Of a stretch of 24,813 nt of DNA, positions 12,026 through 23,915 are shown piece by piece; within the stretch, counting starts at the first letter, position 1, and every line of letters begins with the position of its first letter. This DNA comes from a virus (lineage: Duplodnaviria > Heunggongvirae > Uroviricota > Caudoviricetes). The stretch is from IMG/VR virus record IMGVR_UViG_3300037524_001291; one strand, 5' to 3'. Under the pieces are notes generated by a model. That model ran no database searches and was not told the DNA's origin. It saw only the letters and a program-made list of their open reading frames with translations. The position numbers and the translations under genes are program-made.

Positions 12026-12766
12026 TTATAATAAGTCTTTAACTCTAGCTTTTAAATCTGATAAAGGGGCTACTTCTTTTCTTACTTTGCCATCTAATTT
12101 TGTATCTCCAAAGATTTTTTTATCTCCATCTACCAAAGCTTCTCCACATACCTGAGCATTTTCAAATATCCTAGCTTTTCCAGAGACTTCAGCATTTCCA
12201 TATACCTTGGCGTTATCATATACCTGAGCATTTCCATATACCCAAGCATTTCCATATACCCAAGCTTCTCCATATACCTGAGCATATTCATATACTTTAG
12301 CATTTCCAAATACCTGAGCTTTTCCATATATTTTAGTACTGTCATATACCCAAGCTTCTCCATATACTCTAGCATTTCCAAATACCTCAGCATTTCCAAA
12401 TACCTCAGCTTCTCCAGCTATCCAAGCTTCCCCATATACTTGAGCTTCTCCATATACCTCAGCATCCTCAAATACCTCAACAGTTCCAGATACTTTAGCT
12501 TTTCCATATACTTTAGCATTTCCAGCTACTATTACACTTCCATCCACTCGAGCATTTTCAGCTATAACAGCATTATCAAGCACTCTAGCTTTTCCACCTA
12601 CCCAACAGGTAAGAAGATGAGATAGGTTATCTTCTTTTTCTATATACCCCCCAAGTTCCCCCTTTTTTACAAACTTAAAAGACCTTAGAGCTTTTATTCT
12701 TGTTAGGGTTATTCCATTTACTTCAATTGTATCATCTTTTACAAACTCATATTTTTTATTAGTCAT
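12026..12766 (-). CDS. Hexapeptide-repeat (left-handed beta-helix) phage protein with the shared C-terminal tag
   Basis: N-terminal RIKALRSF..VKKGELGGYIEKEDNLS..CWV followed by many [GE]NA[EKQW]V[YF] hexads. Ends RKEVAPLSDLKARVKDLL. The ORF track starts at 12778; RBS GGAGTGAT favours 12766. Confidence 0.85.
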   Translation of the reverse strand: MTNKKYEFVKDDTIEVNGITLTRIKALRSFKFVKKGELGGYIEKEDNLSHLLTCWVGGKARVLDNAVIAENARVDGSVIVAGNAKVYGKAKVSGTVEVFEDAEVYGEAQVYGEAWIAGEAEVFGNAEVFGNARVYGEAWVYDSTKIYGKAQVFGNAKVYEYAQVYGEAWVYGNAWVYGNAQVYDNAKVYGNAEVSGKARIFENAQVCGEALVDGDKKIFGDTKLDGKVRKEVAPLSDLKARVKDLL

Positions 12767-12782
12767 TAGATTAATCACTCCT

Positions 12783-13588: not shown

Positions 13589-14323
13589 TCATATAATATT
13601 ATTTTCTTCGGCTTTATCTAACCATAAAGGAAATTCTTTTAATAGGGCATCATAGAGGTCTTCTTCTGACATAGAATCTATATTAGATATCTCAAAAAAA
13701 TTTACATTGTCAATAAATCTACCAGAAAGGTTATCTAATTTACTGAGGAAATTAAATTCATTTCCCCAAGTCCCCACAAACTGGAAGAAGTTTTCTGTTT
13801 TCGAGCTATCTATTATTGCTTTTTCAGACTCCCATCTATCGGTATTATCTCCATCGGTAATAAAGATATTAAATACAGGTAATTTCTTATTTATATCAGT
13901 TTTTACTTTAAAGCCTAAAAGTCTTTTAATTTTTACAAAGAGTTTATACCAAAAGGTTTTTTGAGGGTCAAATTTTATAGAGTTAATTACGGGAGCATAG
14001 TAAGTTCCTCCACCAATAAGAGATTTTGATGTTATAAATTTATGTACATAACCCTCAAAGTTATTTATATCTAGGTCATTTAATTTAAAGTATTTATCTG
14101 AGAATACCCACATCCCTAAAACCCCATTAGGAGTAAGTTTAGATGCTATAGGAAAGATTTTTTCAACAATACTCTGAACTTTCCCAGAAGAATAAGCACC
14201 ACACATAGAACCCGAAATATCCAAGACAAGATTTACCTTACAGATTATTTCTCTTTGTGTTATCTTTTTTAGACTTACTGTAACTTTTGCTTCTCTTTCT
14301 TTTAACAGATTTACTTTTGACAT
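13589..14323 (-). CDS. vWA domain protein (TerF C-terminal / Ter stress-response type)
   Basis: MIDAS LVLDISGSM, GGTYYAPVI, FITDG, FFQFVG, LDNLSGRFIDNVNFF and LYDALLKEFPLWL. Confidence 0.88.
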   Translation of the reverse strand: MSKVNLLKEREAKVTVSLKKITQREIICKVNLVLDISGSMCGAYSSGKVQSIVEKIFPIASKLTPNGVLGMWVFSDKYFKLNDLDINNFEGYVHKFITSKSLIGGGTYYAPVINSIKFDPQKTFWYKLFVKIKRLLGFKVKTDINKKLPVFNIFITDGDNTDRWESEKAIIDSSKTENFFQFVGTWGNEFNFLSKLDNLSGRFIDNVNFFEISNIDSMSEEDLYDALLKEFPLWLDKAEENNII

Positions 14324-15231: not shown

Positions 15232-15705
15232 TTATTTATCTTTCAGAACAGTATCTATAGCTCTTATAACCTCTGTGAACTTAGATATGTTTGAATATTT
15301 TCTTCTAAAATTTTCTAGTTCCTTTAAAGCTTGTAAAAGTATTTGTTCATTATAGTAATCATTAGATATTGCTAAGGATATAGATACATATCTACGTGAA
15401 TTTGGCTCTATATCTCTTATACTAACAAAGGCTCTTACAGGCTCTACCTCAGTATTATTACTATCTCCCACACTTACTACCACAATGTTTCTTATCATTT
15501 GTTGAGCTTGTGTTATTCTATGTTTTTCAGCGGCTACAACATCATCCCACTCAAAACATTTATGTAGAGGAGCTTCAACATCCCTAGACTCATCCACCAC
15601 AGTCTTAGGGTTTATTTCTCCTGTTCGTTTCTCTATATCTGTTAGTACTTCTCCAACTACCTGAGCATCTGCTGGAAAGGTTTTTACTCTCCATTGAAAT
15701 ACCAC
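15232..15705 (-). CDS. Conserved phage protein (LH..FEWDD..AA...R..QA..I family), putative accessory of the RAMP/array locus
   Basis: GTG start after RBS GGGAGATGAT. Motifs PLHKCFEWDDVVAAEKHRITQAQQMIR and ALKELENFRRKY. Lies directly downstream of the array. Confidence 0.8.
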   Translation of the reverse strand: MVFQWRVKTFPADAQVVGEVLTDIEKRTGEINPKTVVDESRDVEAPLHKCFEWDDVVAAEKHRITQAQQMIRNIVVVSVGDSNNTEVEPVRAFVSIRDIEPNSRRYVSISLAISNDYYNEQILLQALKELENFRRKYSNISKFTEVIRAIDTVLKDK

Positions 15706-15723: not shown

Positions 15724-16069
15724 TGAGTTGGTTATCCATACTAACCAACTCAAACCATGACTGCCATAACAAAACGCACCTTAACCCACAAGACCATGAC
15801 TGCCATACATCAACTTGCCAAAACAAAACCAACATCAACGAACCTCGACTTAACACACCTCGACTGCCTTACACCAACTTACACAGACTCAACATACATC
15901 ACAGGAACCTAACGTAACTTACCTTGACTTACCACGACTGCCACAACACATCAAAACATAACACACCAAAACCCACCCAAACCTACCAAGACTGCCTTAA
16001 CTTACCTAAACTTACCAAACCAGAACTATCCTCAACCTACCATGTACAAGAGTGTTTATACAAACACTC
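15724..16069 (-). ncRNA. Putative guide-RNA array of KKY-NN pentamers with GGCAGTC delimiters (VIPR-RNA-like), capped by hairpins
   Basis: 52 in-register 5-nt units in five segments (9, 10, 14, 12, 7). GACTGCC occurs on the + strand at 15759, 15798, 15862, 15936 and 15990, with spacings 39, 64, 74 and 54 (all 5n+4). 5' hairpin at 16050-16069 and 3' hairpin at 15724-15752. Confidence 0.8.
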
Positions 16070-16086: not shown

Positions 16087-16734
16087 TTATAGACCTTCTA
16101 TTCTATACATACCAAATTGACCCGATTTTTCAGGTCTCCATTCACCTATACCACAAGAGAACCCTCCATAGTTGAGTAGATTAATAATTTGTTCAGCAGA
16201 AATAACATTTACCATATAAGTTATAGTTAATTCAGCACTCCATTCTTTGAACTCTCCTCTATAACGTAAATCAGCAGAGGTTCCTTGAAGTCTTACCATA
16301 TCTTCTCTTATATTAGGGGTTCCATGTATTTCAACAAATTCTCCTTCAATGTAAAAAGCTCCTAGAATTGATACTTTATCCTTTGACATTTTAGCTCTAT
16401 AACTAGCAGAAGCAGCGGCTAGTTTAAAGGCTATAGAAGGGAATTGAAATTTTGCACCGTTATTTATAGCTTCTTCAAAATCCTCTATAGTAAATTCTGT
16501 TGGCATTTCTGTTTTCCAATACATACTCTCAATAAAATCTCTTACAGGATTTCTTTTCTCTTTAGGTTTTTTTACTTCCTGTGTCTGTACTCCTAACATC
16601 TCTTTTTTAGCTTTCTCAGACCAGCTGTGCATTATCAGAGGAGTAACTCCAACTACTTTTACTCGAATAGTTTTCAATTGAATTCCTGGAATCTCCACTA
16701 ACATAGAACTTTCCTTTGCTTTTTTTACAGTCAT
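16087..16734 (-). CDS. Solo RAMP / Cas7-like RNA-binding protein (Vipr-like effector)
   Basis: RAMP-like motif order: beta1 IRVKVVGVTPLIMH; FQFPSIAFKLAAASA (compare the IPGSSLKG helix); and a C-terminal Gly-rich loop GGFSCGIGEWRPEKSGQFGMYRI. No other cas genes in the window. The ORF track starts at 16743; RBS GAGGTATGAT favours 16734. Confidence 0.78.
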   Translation of the reverse strand: MTVKKAKESSMLVEIPGIQLKTIRVKVVGVTPLIMHSWSEKAKKEMLGVQTQEVKKPKEKRNPVRDFIESMYWKTEMPTEFTIEDFEEAINNGAKFQFPSIAFKLAAASASYRAKMSKDKVSILGAFYIEGEFVEIHGTPNIREDMVRLQGTSADLRYRGEFKEWSAELTITYMVNVISAEQIINLLNYGGFSCGIGEWRPEKSGQFGMYRIEGL

Positions 16735-16781
16735 ACAAATCATACCTCTCTAAATTATTCTACTCAATTTATTACTTTATT

Positions 16782-16810
16782 ACTATAACATGTAAACATA
16801 ATAAAATCAA
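16782..16810 (-). promoter_or_regulatory. Sigma-A promoter of the RAMP/array operon (TTGATT-17-TATAGT, extended TG)
   Basis: Minus strand reads TTGATT ttattatgtttacatgt TATAGT. Confidence 0.65.
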
Positions 16811-16926: not shown

Positions 16927-18579
16927 TCAGCGTTTACCCTTAAGTTTATCTAGTAGTAAGTCTATAACCTTCTTAATATCTTTATCTTTTCCCATCATAT
17001 TTTGGATGTTTATAACTTCTAAGAATCTTTCTGAGAATCCAGTAGCTAGAATCTTTGTATTAGAAGCGGTATTAAACACAGCAAAATCATTCCCTAAAAG
17101 GTTGTTTAGTATTATTTTTTTGAATACTCCTTTGGAAATAAGTTTGTTTATATGAGCTTCAGGAGTACCTATCATACTTCCATTTCTATATGTTCTCTCT
17201 CCAAAAGTTAATGTATTAGTCTTTGAATCATATCCATAACAATCATTATCTGAAAGAAGTATAAGACTATCATATTTGGTATTCGTAGCTTCAATAGTAT
17301 CTAAAGCTATTTTTAATTGCGTACCACTTACATCCATACTCATTTTTATAGCTTTTACAATATCCATTACAGGAGCTTTATTAGAGATATCAACTTTTCT
17401 ACATGAGTTAGAGAATACATACAAATCCCCTACACCACATTTATAAGCGATAGCTCCTAGAACAGCAGACATATCCAAAGCTGTTACCACAGATTTATCT
17501 GATAGTTTATCATTCATAGAACCTGACCTATCTAACAGAATACAATTGATACCCTCTAAAGGGGTTACATTAGATACAGATATATCTAAGGCATCACTTA
17601 AAGCTTCTTTAAGTGAGTTTATAATTACTTTAGTAGGATATCCATCTAACTCATTATAAGCTGAATAGAATCTAAAAGGTAGTAATCTTGATTGTTTAAC
17701 CTCTTTAGGGTCTCTTAGTCTTTTACAAACTGTTTCTAGAGTTTTTTGGTCATTAAAAACATCCTTTTTATATAGGGATACTAGGTTCTTTAGTATATTT
17801 TGTAGTATATCGTCTTCAACAGCTTTAATAAGTCCAGAGTTATCCCGAGTTTTTGTTTGACCTTTTTTAACTGATTCAGTGTTAATGGTAGCTTTCCCAT
17901 CTCCTACTTTAACATTACCTTCTCTAAGTTCTTTGAAGAACTTTTCAAAGTCTTTATTTTTAGGTTTAGGTCTTAATAGTCTCATACAATCTCTTAGGGT
18001 TACATCAGAGTTATTGCTAAGACCTTTTGATAGTTTAAATTTATCATAAGACTCAAACTTTCTTTTTAGTGTTTTCCTTAACTGCATAGGTAGTGCTTCA
18101 TTTCTTTTCCCTACTATGTCAATATAGTCTGAGCTTCTTTTATCGAACATGACCATCTGAGTGGACATTATTGTTACGATATCTTTAGCTCTTTGAATGA
18201 TGTTATCAGCGTACTCATATATTCTATTTTTTCCTTTAGAGTCTATAAAATTCTTACCTAAGAATCTATCATCATTAAAGACAATAGAAAGAATATTTAG
18301 GGGATAGTCTATCATATTGCATAATCTCCCTAGTTCAGCAATCTTTAGGATGTACTCTTTATCTGACTCTGGTATTCTTTGTATTCTTTCGTATAAAGTT
18401 TTAAACTCTGATACAGCATTCTTTTTCTCATAGTAAGTGCTTTCCCCAAAGAATGAACCTAAAACTTGTGAGAATAAAGTTTCAAGGTCTGACATTTGAT
18501 GTACAGTAGTACCCTCATGATTCACAGTTGGTTTAAACATGTTCTGTAGATTTGTTACTTGTTTTTTAAAATTAGCCAT
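16927..18579 (-). CDS. TROVE domain / Ro60-like RNA-binding protein with C-terminal vWA
   Basis: TVNHEG, FFGESTYY, LRDCMRLLRPKP, ILKNL, LRDPKEVKQSRLLPFRFYSAY, MIDAS LLDRSGSM and ILLSD; 550 aa. Confidence 0.9.
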   Translation of the reverse strand: MANFKKQVTNLQNMFKPTVNHEGTTVHQMSDLETLFSQVLGSFFGESTYYEKKNAVSEFKTLYERIQRIPESDKEYILKIAELGRLCNMIDYPLNILSIVFNDDRFLGKNFIDSKGKNRIYEYADNIIQRAKDIVTIMSTQMVMFDKRSSDYIDIVGKRNEALPMQLRKTLKRKFESYDKFKLSKGLSNNSDVTLRDCMRLLRPKPKNKDFEKFFKELREGNVKVGDGKATINTESVKKGQTKTRDNSGLIKAVEDDILQNILKNLVSLYKKDVFNDQKTLETVCKRLRDPKEVKQSRLLPFRFYSAYNELDGYPTKVIINSLKEALSDALDISVSNVTPLEGINCILLDRSGSMNDKLSDKSVVTALDMSAVLGAIAYKCGVGDLYVFSNSCRKVDISNKAPVMDIVKAIKMSMDVSGTQLKIALDTIEATNTKYDSLILLSDNDCYGYDSKTNTLTFGERTYRNGSMIGTPEAHINKLISKGVFKKIILNNLLGNDFAVFNTASNTKILATGFSERFLEVINIQNMMGKDKDIKKVIDLLLDKLKGKR

Positions 18580-19126: not shown

Positions 19127-19197
19127 CTAGGGAATTAGGATTTGAACCCAAACTATAACAGCCAAAGTGTCATGTGCTACCATTACACTATTCCCTA
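19127..19197 (-). tRNA. tRNA-Gln(TTG)
   Basis: Acceptor TAGGGAA/TTCCCTA, anticodon arm TGACA-CTTTGGC-TGTTA, T-loop GTTCAAATC. No CCA encoded. Confidence 0.88.
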
Positions 19198-22538: not shown

Positions 22539-22619
22539 TGTGAGTGAGAGGACTTGAACCTCCACAGGTTTCCCCACTTGAGCCTAAATCAAGCGTGTAT
22601 GCCATTTCACCACACTCAC
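22539..22619 (-). tRNA. tRNA-Leu(TAG)
   Basis: Acceptor GTGAGTG/CACTCAC, anticodon arm CTTGA-TTTAGGC-TCAAG, long variable arm, T-loop GTTCAAGTC. Confidence 0.9.
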
Positions 22620-22630
22620 GTATTTTATAA

Positions 22631-22703
22631 AGGTCATAACAAGACTCGAACTTGTGTATAAAGGTTTTGCAGACCTTAGCCTTACCAACTTGGCTATATG
22701 ACC
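22631..22703 (-). tRNA. tRNA-Cys(GCA)
   Basis: Acceptor GGTCATA/TATGACC, discriminator U, anticodon arm AAGGT-CTGCAAA-ACCTT. Confidence 0.9.
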
Positions 22704-22742
22704 ATAACTAGGGTAGTGTATCTACCCATAGTTTACTAAATT

Positions 22743-22937
22743 TTAAGAATTATTACTGTCTGAGTAATGTCCACCACCGTAAGAATTTCTATTATAACTT
22801 TGTTTTCTAGCTCTTCTACAAGCTAAACATCGTATAGGGTCATTGTTGAATCCCTTCTCCTGATAAAACTCTTGTTCTCCTACAGTAAAAATAAAAGGAC
22901 TACCACAATCTTTACAAACCAAGTCTTTATCCTGCAT
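22743..22937 (-). CDS. Zinc-ribbon protein (zf-trcl-like, common in Clostridia)
   Basis: MQDKDLVCKDCG..FIFTVGEQEFY.EKGF.N.P.RC..CR..RK; RBS AAGGTGAGG. Confidence 0.88.
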   Translation of the reverse strand: MQDKDLVCKDCGSPFIFTVGEQEFYQEKGFNNDPIRCLACRRARKQSYNRNSYGGGHYSDSNNS

Positions 22938-22965
22938 AGTTTTATTACCTCACCTTATAGTATAA

Positions 22966-23370
22966 TCACATATTTTTTTCAGAAAGAGCTTCTTCTAGAG
23001 TATCAAATACTTTAACACTTCTAGAACTTAAACTAGTGCTGTATCCCGAACCAGAAAGATTGTCATCCATCTTCCATATATCAGTACTCCAATTAGTAGC
23101 AAGTGCTTTAGTTTTCATATCAATCTTCCTAAGAGCAAATTCATTGTCACTTGTAGGTCCCATAGTACCACCATATTCTTTTGGACCTACTATTTTATAA
23201 ATACTTCCTTTTTTGTAGGAATCTCTTCCAGAAGACTTTATTCCAACATAGGGTACATCTTTTAAAAATAGTAAATAACTTCCGATTTTAGGAGCTTTTT
23301 TTGGTCTTGTATACTCAGAAGCCTCAAATATCCTACTCAAACCTTCAATAATCAAATCAGATTTTCTCAT
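22966..23370 (-). CDS. Hypothetical protein with the shared leader (LIIEGLSRIFE); candidate internal head protein
   Basis: The ORF track starts at 23409. RBS GGAGGGTGG supports ATG 23370. Confidence 0.7.
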   Translation of the reverse strand: MRKSDLIIEGLSRIFEASEYTRPKKAPKIGSYLLFLKDVPYVGIKSSGRDSYKKGSIYKIVGPKEYGGTMGPTSDNEFALRKIDMKTKALATNWSTDIWKMDDNLSGSGYSTSLSSRSVKVFDTLEEALSEKNM

Positions 23371-23467
23371 AATACCACCCTCCAATAAACTAAAATAATA
23401 TCTATACATGTATATAAAAACTTTTTTATTTCCTGAGAGTATTATAAGATAGCGTTTTTGCTACATA

Positions 23468-23498
23468 TTCAGAGTCCTACCAACTGAGCTACTGGTCA
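23468..23498 (-). pseudogene. tRNA 5'-half / D-arm remnant
   Basis: Minus strand reads TGACCAG-TAGCTCAGTTGGTAGGAC-TCTGAA. It has a canonical D-loop but no T-arm or 3' acceptor strand. Confidence 0.45.
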
Positions 23499-23584
23499 AA
23501 ATATAAGGTAACAAATCACACTAGGGTACTTATTCTAATATATCGTACAATCTTCGTTTGACTTTGTAATTTGTGTTCCTTAAG

Positions 23585-23658
23585 TGGGTCTTAGTGGACT
23601 CGAACCACTGACAAATCGGTTATGAGCCGACTACTCTAACCAGCTGAGATAAAGACCC
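23585..23658 (-). tRNA. tRNA-CAT, probably Ile2 (lysidine type); Met not excluded
   Basis: Acceptor GGGTCTT/AAGACCC and anticodon arm GTCGG-CTCATAA-CCGAT. It lacks the initiator C1:A72 pair and GGG/CCC stem. Confidence 0.85.
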
Positions 23659-23686
23659 TAAATAAACAAACTTTATAAATATTACA

Positions 23687-23759
23687 TGACACATACAGGG
23701 ATCGAACCTGCGAGTCCATGGATGAAAACCATATGTCTTAACCACTTGACTAATGTGCC
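23687..23759 (-). tRNA. tRNA-Glu(TTC)
   Basis: Acceptor GGCACAT/ATGTGTC, anticodon arm TATGG-TTTTCAT-CCATG, T-loop GTTCGATC. Confidence 0.9.
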
Positions 23760-23766
23760 ATTTAAA

Positions 23767-23839
23767 TGGAATCTGTGGGAGTTGAACCCACGCTCCCCTG
23801 CGTGCAAGGCAGGTGCTTTCCCGACTAAGCTAAGACCCC
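23767..23839 (-). tRNA. tRNA-Ala(TGC)
   Basis: Acceptor GGGGTCT/AGATTCC with G3:U70, anticodon arm CCTGC-CTTGCAC-GCAGG. Confidence 0.92.
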
Positions 23840-23844
23840 AAAAA

Positions 23845-23915
23845 AGCAGAATATCAGAATCGAACTGATAACCAGAGATTGGAAATCTCTCATTTTACCA
23901 TTAAACTAATTCTGC
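23845..23915 (-). tRNA. tRNA-Gly(TCC)
   Basis: Acceptor GCAGAAT/ATTCTGC, discriminator U, anticodon arm AGAGA-TTTCCAA-TCTCT. Confidence 0.9.

What the first reader, a model, noticed from the sequence alone, without database searches (positions are those of the whole stretch)
15753..16041. Decoded array: 52 in-register KKY-NN units forming five discrete guides separated by GGCA
Minus strand, unit by unit. S1: GGTag GTTga GGAta GTTct GGTtt GGTaa GTTta GGTaa GTTaa. S2: GTCtt GGTag GTTtg GGTgg GTTtt GGTgt GTTat GTTtt GATgt GTTgt. S3: GTCgt GGTaa GTCaa GGTaa GTTac GTTag GTTcc TGTga TGTat GTTga GTCtg TGTaa GTTgg TGTaa. S4: GTCga GGTgt GTTaa GTCga GGTtc GTTga TGTtg GTTtt GTTtt GGCaa GTTga TGTat. S5: GTCat GGTct TGTgg GTTaa GGTgc GTTtt GTTat. 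GGCA follows each segment, and after the last one come GTCat GGTtt and the 3' hairpin. Triplet counts are GTT 22, GGT 13, GTC 7, TGT 7, GGC 1, GGA 1, GAT 1, so 50 of 52 are KKY, while NN varies freely. The register never slips except at the 4-nt GGCA, and every GGCA is followed by GTC-NN-GGT. A decaying microsatellite would not concentrate variation in two fixed positions like this. Inference: the NN strings are the payload: S1 AG GA TA CT TT AA TA AA AA; S2 TT AG TG GG TT GT AT TT GT GT; S3 GT AA AA AA AC AG CC GA AT GA TG AA GG AA; S4 GA GT AA GA TC GA TG TT TT AA GA AT; S5 AT CT GG AA GC TT AT. GGCAGTC may be a processing or polymerisation-boundary site. If targets are gapped NN-x-NN-x, they could track codon positions 1-2 and ignore wobble. 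I saw no self-target by eye, but did not search exhaustively.
Basis: partly seen in the sequence, partly recalled or inferred. Interest (0 to 1): 0.88.

Follow-up and report, generated by a model that had tools for sequence, protein, structure and literature searches.

The report
Phage VIPR guide-RNA array (staggered type)
The 5-base repeat tract is the guide-RNA array of a VIPR system, a CRISPR-like phage gene-silencing system first described in 2026 preprints, so it is a real and well-read feature but a new member of a known kind, and I could not find what its five guides target.

Summary
On the minus strand, 16041-15753 holds 52 in-register G-K-Y-N-N pentamers in five blocks. Each block ends in GGCA followed by GTC-NN-GGT.

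The gene just upstream (16087-16743) is a lone Cas7-like RAMP that matches the solved SUSP1 Vipr protein and keeps its RNA-contact residues. The gene just downstream (15232-15705) is a conserved accessory partner.

The same trio of gene, array and gene recurs in the 80 related viral loci fetched. 253 boundary-delimited guides of mostly 8-16 units were parsed in 67 of them. G-K-Y is fixed and NN is free. Whole guides turn over between near-identical relatives.

This is VIPR (bioRxiv 10.64898/2026.04.26.720920 and .720927), in its "staggered" array form, where neighbouring guides share one G (GGCAG|GTC).

That is the published 1-nt-skip rule. I re-found the rule in this clade: one guide spells EDMVRIGMGT of rival vipr genes.

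For the window's own five guides I found no target. I searched the window, the related loci, and the viral, genome and metagenome collections.

Local peculiarities are U at scaffold position 2 in over half the units, no 3' tail, and an accessory protein unrelated to vap1.

This scan has noted VIPR many times on other DNA.

The parts
16782..16810 (-). Promoter-like site (TTGATT-17-TATAGT with TG) upstream of vipr. It is the likely start of the vipr-array-vap transcript.
   Evidence: Consensus scan only. It lies after a terminator-like hairpin at 16861-16834 that follows the TROVE gene. Weak evidence.
16087..16743 (-). vipr: a lone RAMP/Cas7-like protein. The ORF is 218 aa; the database gene call is 215 aa and starts at 16734.
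   Evidence: The profile of 37 homologues hits PDB 36pp 'SUSP1 Vipr protein' at E 4.7e-11; the single sequence hits it at 3.4e-7. The AF2 model has pLDDT 89. Foldseek and VIA top hits are Csm3, Cmr4 and Cas7 chains, with Z up to 9.7. H39, R162, E201, W202 and R203 align with SUSP1 H17, R138, D177, W178 and R179, which hold G1 and G2.
16050..16069 (-). 8-bp hairpin between the vipr stop codon and the first guide.
   Evidence: It is not seen in the high-GC relatives whose arrays I read (L001, L003). Function unknown.
15997..16041 (-). Guide S1, 9 units. NN string: AG GA TA CT TT AA TA AA AA.
15943..15992 (-). Guide S2, 10 units. NN string: TT AG TG GG TT GT AT TT GT GT. Preceded by GGCA at 15993-15996.
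15869..15938 (-). Guide S3, 14 units. NN string: GT AA AA AA AC AG CC GA AT GA TG AA GG AA. Preceded by GGCA at 15939-15942.
15805..15864 (-). Guide S4, 12 units. NN string: GA GT AA GA TC GA TG TT TT AA GA AT. Preceded by GGCA at 15865-15868.
15766..15800 (-). Guide S5, 7 units, which is short. NN string: AT CT GG AA GC TT AT. Preceded by GGCA at 15801-15804 and followed by GGCA at 15762-15765.
   Evidence: Only 4 of the 253 guides parsed in relatives have fewer than 8 units.
15725..15761 (-). End of the array: GTCat GGTtt, then a perfect 10-bp hairpin (15751-15725) just before the vap ribosome-binding site.
   Evidence: A similar terminal hairpin closes the array of relative L113.
15232..15705 (-). 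Candidate vap (vipr-accessory protein), 157 aa, FEWDD motif, phrog_15946.
   Evidence: It is found next to vipr in 76 of 80 related loci, on either side of the array. It is 36% identical to Gordonia phage Pipp gp44. It shows no similarity to the SUSP1-type vap1. The AF2 model has pLDDT 92. The N-terminal domain gives weak winged-helix-like matches at Z 5-7.

Best explanation
The tract is the guide-RNA (vrRNA) array of a phage VIPR system, arranged vipr - array - vap.

By homology with the characterised SUSP1 and P. fulva systems, the transcript is coated by Vipr protomers, one per 5-nt unit. Each G-K-Y trinucleotide is flipped into protein pockets. The two free bases of each unit are presented for pairing.

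The resulting filament reads double-stranded DNA two bases at a time and skips every third base. In genes the skipped base is usually the codon wobble. Binding represses transcription of a competing mobile element.

Here five guides lie head to tail with no tail or hairpin between them. The last unit of one guide (GGCAG) and the first unit of the next (GUCnn) share one G. This 1-nt frame slip delimits the guides.

Shown here: the anatomy, the protein homology, the conserved contact residues, conservation across the clade, guide turnover, and the skip rule acting in this clade.

Inferred: transcription, processing at GGCAG|G, ribonucleoprotein assembly and silencing for this particular locus.

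Unknown: the targets.
For: - Exact parse and statistics of the array.
- Vipr homology to the solved SUSP1 Vipr, with conserved G1 and G2 contact residues. The model has a RAMP fold.
- Of 80 viral loci found through the Vipr homologue, nearly all carry same-strand pentamer arrays beside it.
- 253 boundary-delimited guides lie in 67 of those loci, mostly 8-16 units long with a mode of 10. G1 is 94% G, position 2 is G 71% / T 25%, position 3 is C or T in 95%, and NN is free.
- Only vipr and the 157-aa gene are conserved around the arrays.
- Loci whose Vipr is 94-99% identical mostly share no guides.
- Against the 1.3 Mb of related-locus sequence searched (both strands), the 1-nt skip gives 87 hits at 85% or more. 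The 0-nt skip gives 2, the 2-nt skip 4, and shuffled guides 5.
- Those hits are led by one guide that spells EDMVRIGMGT in frame 0 of 34 rival vipr genes. The carrier's own vipr matches only 15 of 22.
- No self-target exists in the window.
- The array RNA is predicted unstructured, z -0.49, as expected for a protein-coated guide.
- Published mechanism and array types: 10.64898/2026.04.26.720920 and 10.64898/2026.04.26.720927.
Against: - No DNA matching any of the five guides under the 1-nt-skip rule was found beyond chance.
- Position 2 of the scaffold is U in 30 of 53 units, and position 1 is U in 7, against the canonical GGY.
- S5 has only 7 units.
- There are no expression data.
- According to the paper's text, staggered arrays were not among the architectures confirmed by small-RNA sequencing.
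Confidence: 0.92

Rival explanations
1. The tract is a VIPR-derived array that no longer works as five guides. It would be a decaying array, tolerated after loss of targets, or one long unprocessed RNA.
For: No targets were found. The scaffold is relaxed (G-K-Y). S5 is short and a truncated sixth start (GTCat GGTtt) follows it.
Against: - All five boundaries are intact and in register.
- 50 of 52 units keep KKY.
- vipr and vap are intact, and the Vipr contact residues are conserved.
- The nearest relatives (63-69% Vipr identity) use the same GTY/GGT/TGT units and the same boundaries with entirely different guides. The relaxed scaffold is therefore a lineage trait under selection, not decay.
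Confidence: 0.04
2. The tract is an RNA partner or sponge for the adjacent TROVE/Ro60-like protein (a Y-RNA analogue), or for a TRAP-like ring protein that reads triplets spaced by two bases.
For: A TROVE/Ro60-like gene lies just upstream. A related phage contig also has TROVE before vipr. The triplet-plus-2-nt spacing resembles TRAP sites; this last point is from my own knowledge.
Against: - None of the 80 related loci has a TROVE gene near the array.
- No Y-RNA or any other Rfam family matches.
- The RNA lacks a conserved stem.
- The array always travels with the RAMP gene instead.
Confidence: 0.02
3. The tract acts at the DNA level, as replication-origin iterons, a packaging site, bent DNA, or a decaying microsatellite.
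For: It is an intergenic tandem repeat. In relatives the neighbours are often replication genes. TRF reports only weak 10-bp periods.
Against: - The strand is fixed relative to vipr in all loci.
- Variation is confined to two of every five positions.
- Blocks of about 10 units are delimited by a conserved 7-mer with a -1 frame slip.
- Whole blocks are replaced between near-identical phages.
- One block matches rival genes codon by codon.

None of this is expected of iterons or slippage.
Confidence: 0.02

Closest known systems
VIPR systems with 'staggered' vrRNA arrays (bioRxiv 10.64898/2026.04.26.720920, fig. S18 legend)
   Same: - A lone Vipr RAMP plus one accessory gene, in a phage.
- Arrays of 5-nt units with a fixed trinucleotide and free NN.
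- Neighbouring guides overlap by 1 nt, here GGCAG|GUC.
- No spacer, hairpin or ribozyme lies between guides.
   Different: - The scaffold is G-K-Y, not GGY: GUU or GUC in 30 units and UGU in 7.
- The paper's text does not say which of its seven types uses staggered arrays, so I cannot assign a type.
- Staggered processing was not among the architectures the paper confirmed by small-RNA sequencing.
Type II VIPR of Escherichia phage SUSP1 and a Pseudomonas fulva prophage (Vipr, vap1, vrRNAs; PDB 36pp)
   Same: - The Vipr fold and the residues that grip G1 and G2.
- The 5-nt unit.
- Guide lengths of 9-16 units.
- The vipr-vap gene pair.
- The 1-nt-skip rule, re-found in this clade.
   Different: - Vipr identity is only about 25%.
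- Type II vrRNAs are separate ~100-nt RNAs, each with an invariable structured 3' tail (a pseudoknot). Here there is no tail.
- The accessory protein has no detectable similarity to vap1.
Class 1 CRISPR Cas7 backbone filaments (Csm3, Cmr4, Cas7)
   Same: The RAMP fold with G-loop and thumb, and one protomer per repeat unit of the guide, with periodic base flipping.
   Different: - Periodicity is 5 nt with three bases flipped, against 6 nt with one flipped.
- There are no CRISPR repeats, no other cas genes and no adaptation module.
- Target pairing is non-contiguous.

Membership tests
VIPR | A Vipr protein: a single-RRM RAMP with G-loop and thumb, homologous to the characterised Vipr | tested here: met
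   PDB 36pp 'SUSP1 Vipr protein' is hit at E 4.7e-11 by the profile and 3.4e-7 by the single sequence. The model has pLDDT 89, and its top structural matches are Csm3, Cmr4 and Cas7 chains.
VIPR | Residues that hold the GGY bases are conserved (SUSP1 H17, R138, D177, W178, R179) | tested here: met
   H39, R162, E201, W202 and R203 align to them. H39, R162, E201 and R203 are invariant in 37 homologues and W202 is at least 90% conserved. D177 is replaced by E.
VIPR | vrRNA made of tandem 5-nt units with a fixed GGY (or related consensus) and hypervariable NN, 9-16 units per guide | tested here: met
   There are 52 units, 50 of them KKY, with free NN, in guides of 9, 10, 14, 12 and 7 units. Two deviations: position 2 is U in 30 of 53 units, and S5 is short.
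VIPR | A minimal locus of vipr plus one accessory gene flanked by the non-coding array, carried by a virus | tested here: met
   The order vipr - array - 157-aa gene stands here. The pair is conserved in 76 of 80 viral loci. The window carries phage genes and 7 tRNA genes.
VIPR | A recognised array architecture (tailed, staggered, ribozyme-interspersed or single) | tested here: met
   The staggered form is met: GGCAG and GTCnn share one G at all five boundaries, and the same is seen at 253 guides in relatives. The type II tail with pseudoknot is absent.
VIPR | Guides match natural DNA targets under the 1-nt-skip rule, with the skip base at the codon wobble | tested here: inconclusive
   No target above chance was found for the window's S1-S5 in any collection. 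The rule is met within the clade: the L013/L019 guide matches 34 rival vipr genes at 19-20 of 22 bases in frame 0.
VIPR | No self-targeting by the array's own guides | tested here: met
   The best window matches of S1-S5 under the 1-nt skip are no better than shuffled guides.
VIPR | The vrRNAs are expressed, processed and co-purify with Vipr, and they silence matched DNA | not testable with these tools
   This needs small-RNA sequencing, pull-down and reporter assays.
Ro60 / Y RNA | A Y-RNA-like stem or tRNA-like module next to a TROVE gene, and co-conservation of the RNA with TROVE | tested here: not met
   No Rfam match. There is no stable structure, z -0.49. TROVE is absent from all 80 related array loci.
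CRISPR array | Direct repeats of 20-50 nt alternating with spacers, together with cas genes | tested here: not met
   The only repeats are the 5-nt units and the 7-nt boundary. No Cas family other than the RAMP was found among the neighbours.

The most novel reading that the evidence does not exclude
This AT-rich large-phage lineage may run a relaxed VIPR code. The scaffold would need only one G within positions 1-2 (GGU, GUU, GUC or UGU). Tail-less guides would be delimited solely by a 1-nt frame slip at GGCAG|GUY-NN-GGU. That would imply a boundary or processing mechanism not yet demonstrated for any VIPR system, such as termination of the Vipr filament at the 4-nt unit followed by host RNase trimming. 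The accessory protein (FEWDD family) is unrelated to vap1.
Probability: 0.3. Interest if true: 0.45.

Novelty: new member of a known kind. Interest (0 to 1): 0.3.

Why it matters
VIPR is a newly described class of RNA-guided DNA recognition, and this locus adds one more natural example. It comes from a low-GC phage of about 160 kb and shows how far the GGY scaffold can relax. It is also a clean example of the tail-less staggered array, whose processing has not been shown experimentally.

For the scan, the value is mainly as a settled annotation:
- The tract is not a microsatellite, a replication origin or a Y RNA.
- Genes annotated over such arrays are false. An example is 'gp43' of Gordonia phage Pipp.

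The clade-level result is independent support for the published skip rule and for VIPR-against-VIPR conflict. One guide spells a conserved Vipr motif of rival phages, while the carrier's own gene carries escaping substitutions.

Tried and rejected
**Early ideas, dropped once the RAMP homology and clade conservation were seen**
- A TRAP-like ring protein binding the RNA.
- A terminase small-subunit or pac site.
- Origin iterons.
- Two-tetrad G-quadruplexes.
- Primase recognition sites.

**Searches that found nothing**
- Rfam: no family matches.
- Nucleotide BLAST of the region against GenBank phages: no match.

**Target hunt for S1-S5 under the 1-nt-skip rule**
- Window: nothing better than shuffled guides.
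- 80 related loci: nothing.
- Nearest relatives L112-L114, tested in both directions: nothing.
- IMG/VR, exact full-length S3, S4 and S2: 0 hits.
- IMG/VR, 9-unit seeds: S3 units 5-13 and 1-9 gave 0 hits; S4 units 2-10 gave 4 hits; S4 units 4-12 gave 1 hit. All of these extend by only 1-2 of the 6 remaining bases, so they are chance.
- Species-genome and metagenome collections, S3 units 5-13: 9 and 15 hits. They fall in unrelated contexts and mostly in short open frames.
- The best of these, 24 of 28 bases in L096/L103, lies in an AT-rich contig with almost no ORFs and has no second guide hit. I rejected it.
- The source assembly (GCA_025491015.1) and the Logan runs could not be searched.

**Other checks that led nowhere**
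- No Vipr alignment column tracks the use of GU against GG units.
- The promoter-like TTGGTA-18-TATAAT at 16115-16086 is not conserved in relatives. Its -35 lies in the conserved FGMY codons, so I do not count it.
- The window's guides share no NN string with any of the 216 guides of relatives.
- I ran no complex prediction, because I make no binding claim that needs one.

Full report
**1. The observation**

I read the minus strand from 16300 to 15500 and parsed 16041..15753 by script.
- Five blocks hold 9, 10, 14, 12 and 7 pentamers. Each block is followed by GGCA, and each GGCA is followed by GTC-NN-GGT.
- After the fifth GGCA come GTCat GGTtt and a perfect 10-bp hairpin (15751-15725), just before the ribosome-binding site of the next gene.
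- Position 1 is G in 46 of 53 units. Position 2 is T in 30 and G in 22. Position 3 is T in 43 and C in 9. Positions 4-5 are mixed.
- Given the tract's own composition, 51 of 53 KKY units has P of about 1e-26. Period-5 power exceeds all 2000 shuffles.
- The tract fills the gap between two minus-strand ORFs, 16087-16743 and 15232-15705.

**2. What travels with it**

The upstream ORF has no Pfam family. It belongs to phrog_4652.

A scan of IMG/VR with this protein returned 80 loci at 39-57% identity. Nearly all of them carry pentamer arrays on the same strand, just downstream of the gene or one gene further on.

Only two proteins are conserved around the arrays: this one, and the homologue of the 157-aa ORF, which is present in 76 of 80 loci. 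The array lies either between the two genes or after both. The wider neighbourhoods differ and include DNA polymerase, primase, SbcC-like proteins, methylases and sometimes structural genes. The three-part module is therefore what is conserved.

The TROVE/Ro60-like gene at 16927-18579 is not part of the module. It is absent from all 80 loci. One closer relative does keep it upstream, as ordinary synteny.

**3. Identity**

- A profile of 37 homologues (A1) hits PDB 36pp, 'SUSP1 Vipr protein', at E 4.7e-11. The single sequence hits it at 3.4e-7.
- The AlphaFold model has pLDDT 89. It matches Csm3, Cmr4, Cas7 and Cas7-11 RAMPs by Foldseek. By VIA-align, Z reaches 9.7 and 47 of the top 50 chains are CRISPR RAMPs.
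- The literature search found three 2026 preprints that describe VIPR systems. A fourth recovers VIPR arrays from entropy periodicity.

From those papers:
- vrRNAs are runs of 9-16 YNNGG units.
- One Vipr protomer binds each unit and sequesters GGY.
- The NN bases pair with double-stranded DNA while every third target base is skipped, usually the codon wobble.
- Binding silences transcription of rival satellites, prophages and other VIPR systems.
- There are seven types with six vap families. Array architectures include 'staggered arrays', in which vrRNAs overlap by 1 nt.

The SUSP1 residues that hold G1 (H17, D177) and G2 (R138, W178), and R179, align with H39, E201, R162, W202 and R203 here. 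These are invariant or nearly invariant in the clade.

The boundary GGCAG|GTCnn is a 1-nt overlap of the unit GGCag with the unit GTCnn. That is the staggered architecture.

**4. The clade behaves as VIPR should**

I used the boundary motif GGCAG[GT][CT] with spacing of 4 mod 5.
- This parsed 253 guides (216 unique) in 67 loci. They are mostly 8-16 units long, with a mode of 10. G1 is 94% G, position 2 is G 71% / T 25%, position 3 is C 52% / T 43%, and NN is close to free.
- Loci with 94-99% identical Vipr mostly share no guide at all. Examples are L015/L023 and L009/L010.

I then scanned all unique guides of nine or more units against the 1.3 Mb of related-locus sequence searched (both strands).
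- The 1-nt skip gave 87 hits at 85% or more. The 0-nt skip gave 2, the 2-nt skip gave 4, and shuffled guides gave 5. The 3-nt skip only re-finds each guide's own DNA.
- The signal is dominated by one event. The first guide of L013 and L019 (GA GA AT GT CG AT GG AT GG AC TT) reads codon positions 1-2 of EDMVRIGMGT, the conserved thumb motif of Vipr.
- It matches 20 of 22 bases in 12 rival loci and 19 of 22 in 22 more, always in frame 0, with wobble bases that differ among targets.
- The carriers' own vipr reads EDMCRIGQGS and matches only 15 of 22.

This independently reproduces the published rule in this clade. It also fits the published VIPR-against-VIPR conflict.

**5. The window's own guides**

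- No self-target exists. This agrees with the papers' control.
- No target was found in the 80 loci or in the nearest relatives.
One more went to the species genomes and one to the metagenomes.
- Exact full-length S2, S3 and S4 gave nothing. Nine-unit seeds gave only hits that fail to extend. The best, 24 of 28, sits in an AT-rich contig with almost no ORFs.
- The same phage is present, with an identical array, in NCBI assembly GCA_025491015.1 and in two sequencing runs. Those records could not be searched.

The targets therefore remain unknown. This is weak evidence against function, because the host and its mobile elements are probably not in the collections I could scan with exact patterns.

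**6. How this copy differs**

- **Relaxed scaffold.** GUU or GUC make up 30 units and UGU 7, so G-K-Y replaces GGY. The window is the extreme of the clade, with 58% GT at positions 1-2 in its four boundary-delimited guides. The nearest relatives (L112 at 69%, L113/L114 at 63% Vipr identity, GC 33-35%) use the same units and the boundary GGCAGTY-NN-GGT, with unrelated guides. GC content does not fully explain this: L001 at 40% GC uses 83% GG. No Vipr column tracks it. Variant and degenerate trinucleotides are already reported, so this is a minor variant.
- **No 3' tail.** The array RNA is predicted unstructured, z -0.49.
- **A different accessory protein.** It shows no similarity to SUSP1-type vap1. 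It is 36% identical to Gordonia phage Pipp gp44. Its model (pLDDT 92) has an N-terminal domain with weak winged-helix-like matches at Z 5-7, and a C-terminal helical hairpin. This is compatible with the DNA-binding vaps described in the paper but is not proven.

**7. Verdict**

The locus is a new member of a known kind. Transcription, processing at the boundary and silencing are inferred by homology, and the targets are unknown.

This scan has already logged VIPR arrays many times on other DNA: 787 notes in at least 390 genomes. It also logged a note on this same window.

Noticed in passing
L013:4612-4675 and L019 (same guide); targets such as L001:4415-4447: An anti-vipr guide spells EDMVRIGMGT, the Vipr thumb motif. 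It matches 34 rival vipr genes at 19-20 of 22 NN bases in codon frame 0. The carrier's own vipr has V>C, M>Q and T>S at that site and matches only 15 of 22.
   Followed up: yes
L109:3123-3392 (Gordonia phage Pipp, MN234179.1 33093-33362): The annotated CDS 'gp43, hypothetical protein' between the Vipr homologue (gp42) and the vap homologue (gp44) is really a staggered GGC-NN array with GGCAGGC boundaries. It is a likely false gene call in cultured actinophages.
   Followed up: partly
window 16927-18579 (-), with tRNA-Gln at 19127-19197: The phage encodes a TROVE/Ro60-like protein with a vWA domain, followed by a strong terminator. No Y-RNA-like family was detected anywhere in the window. A relative at 62% Vipr identity also has TROVE directly upstream of vipr.
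   Followed up: partly
window 19127-19197 and 22539-23915 (-): There are seven tRNA genes (Gln, Leu, Cys, Met, Glu, Ala, Gly). The same phage occurs on a contig of up to 161 kb, so it is a large phage, with 31% GC in this window.
   Followed up: no
L006:4740-4798, L034, L067, L068, L069: Five loci, most with Vipr well under 80% identical to one another, carry nearly the same 11-unit NN string (AA GG AA AT GC GA TT GC CT GG TA) on different G-K-Y scaffolds. This suggests a shared, unidentified target.
   Followed up: no
L112:1946-2441: Two neighbouring guides of the closest relative share a six-unit substring (GG AT GC TG GG TT) at different offsets, as if they tile one target site.
   Followed up: no
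window 12125-12524 within ORF 12026-12778 (-): An 18-nt (6-aa) tandem repeat of about 22 copies lies inside a phrog_5070 protein.
   Followed up: no
window 13589-14323 (-): A vWA-TerF-like protein (Pfam E 6e-52) lies a few genes downstream of the VIPR module. It is not conserved with the module in relatives.
   Followed up: no
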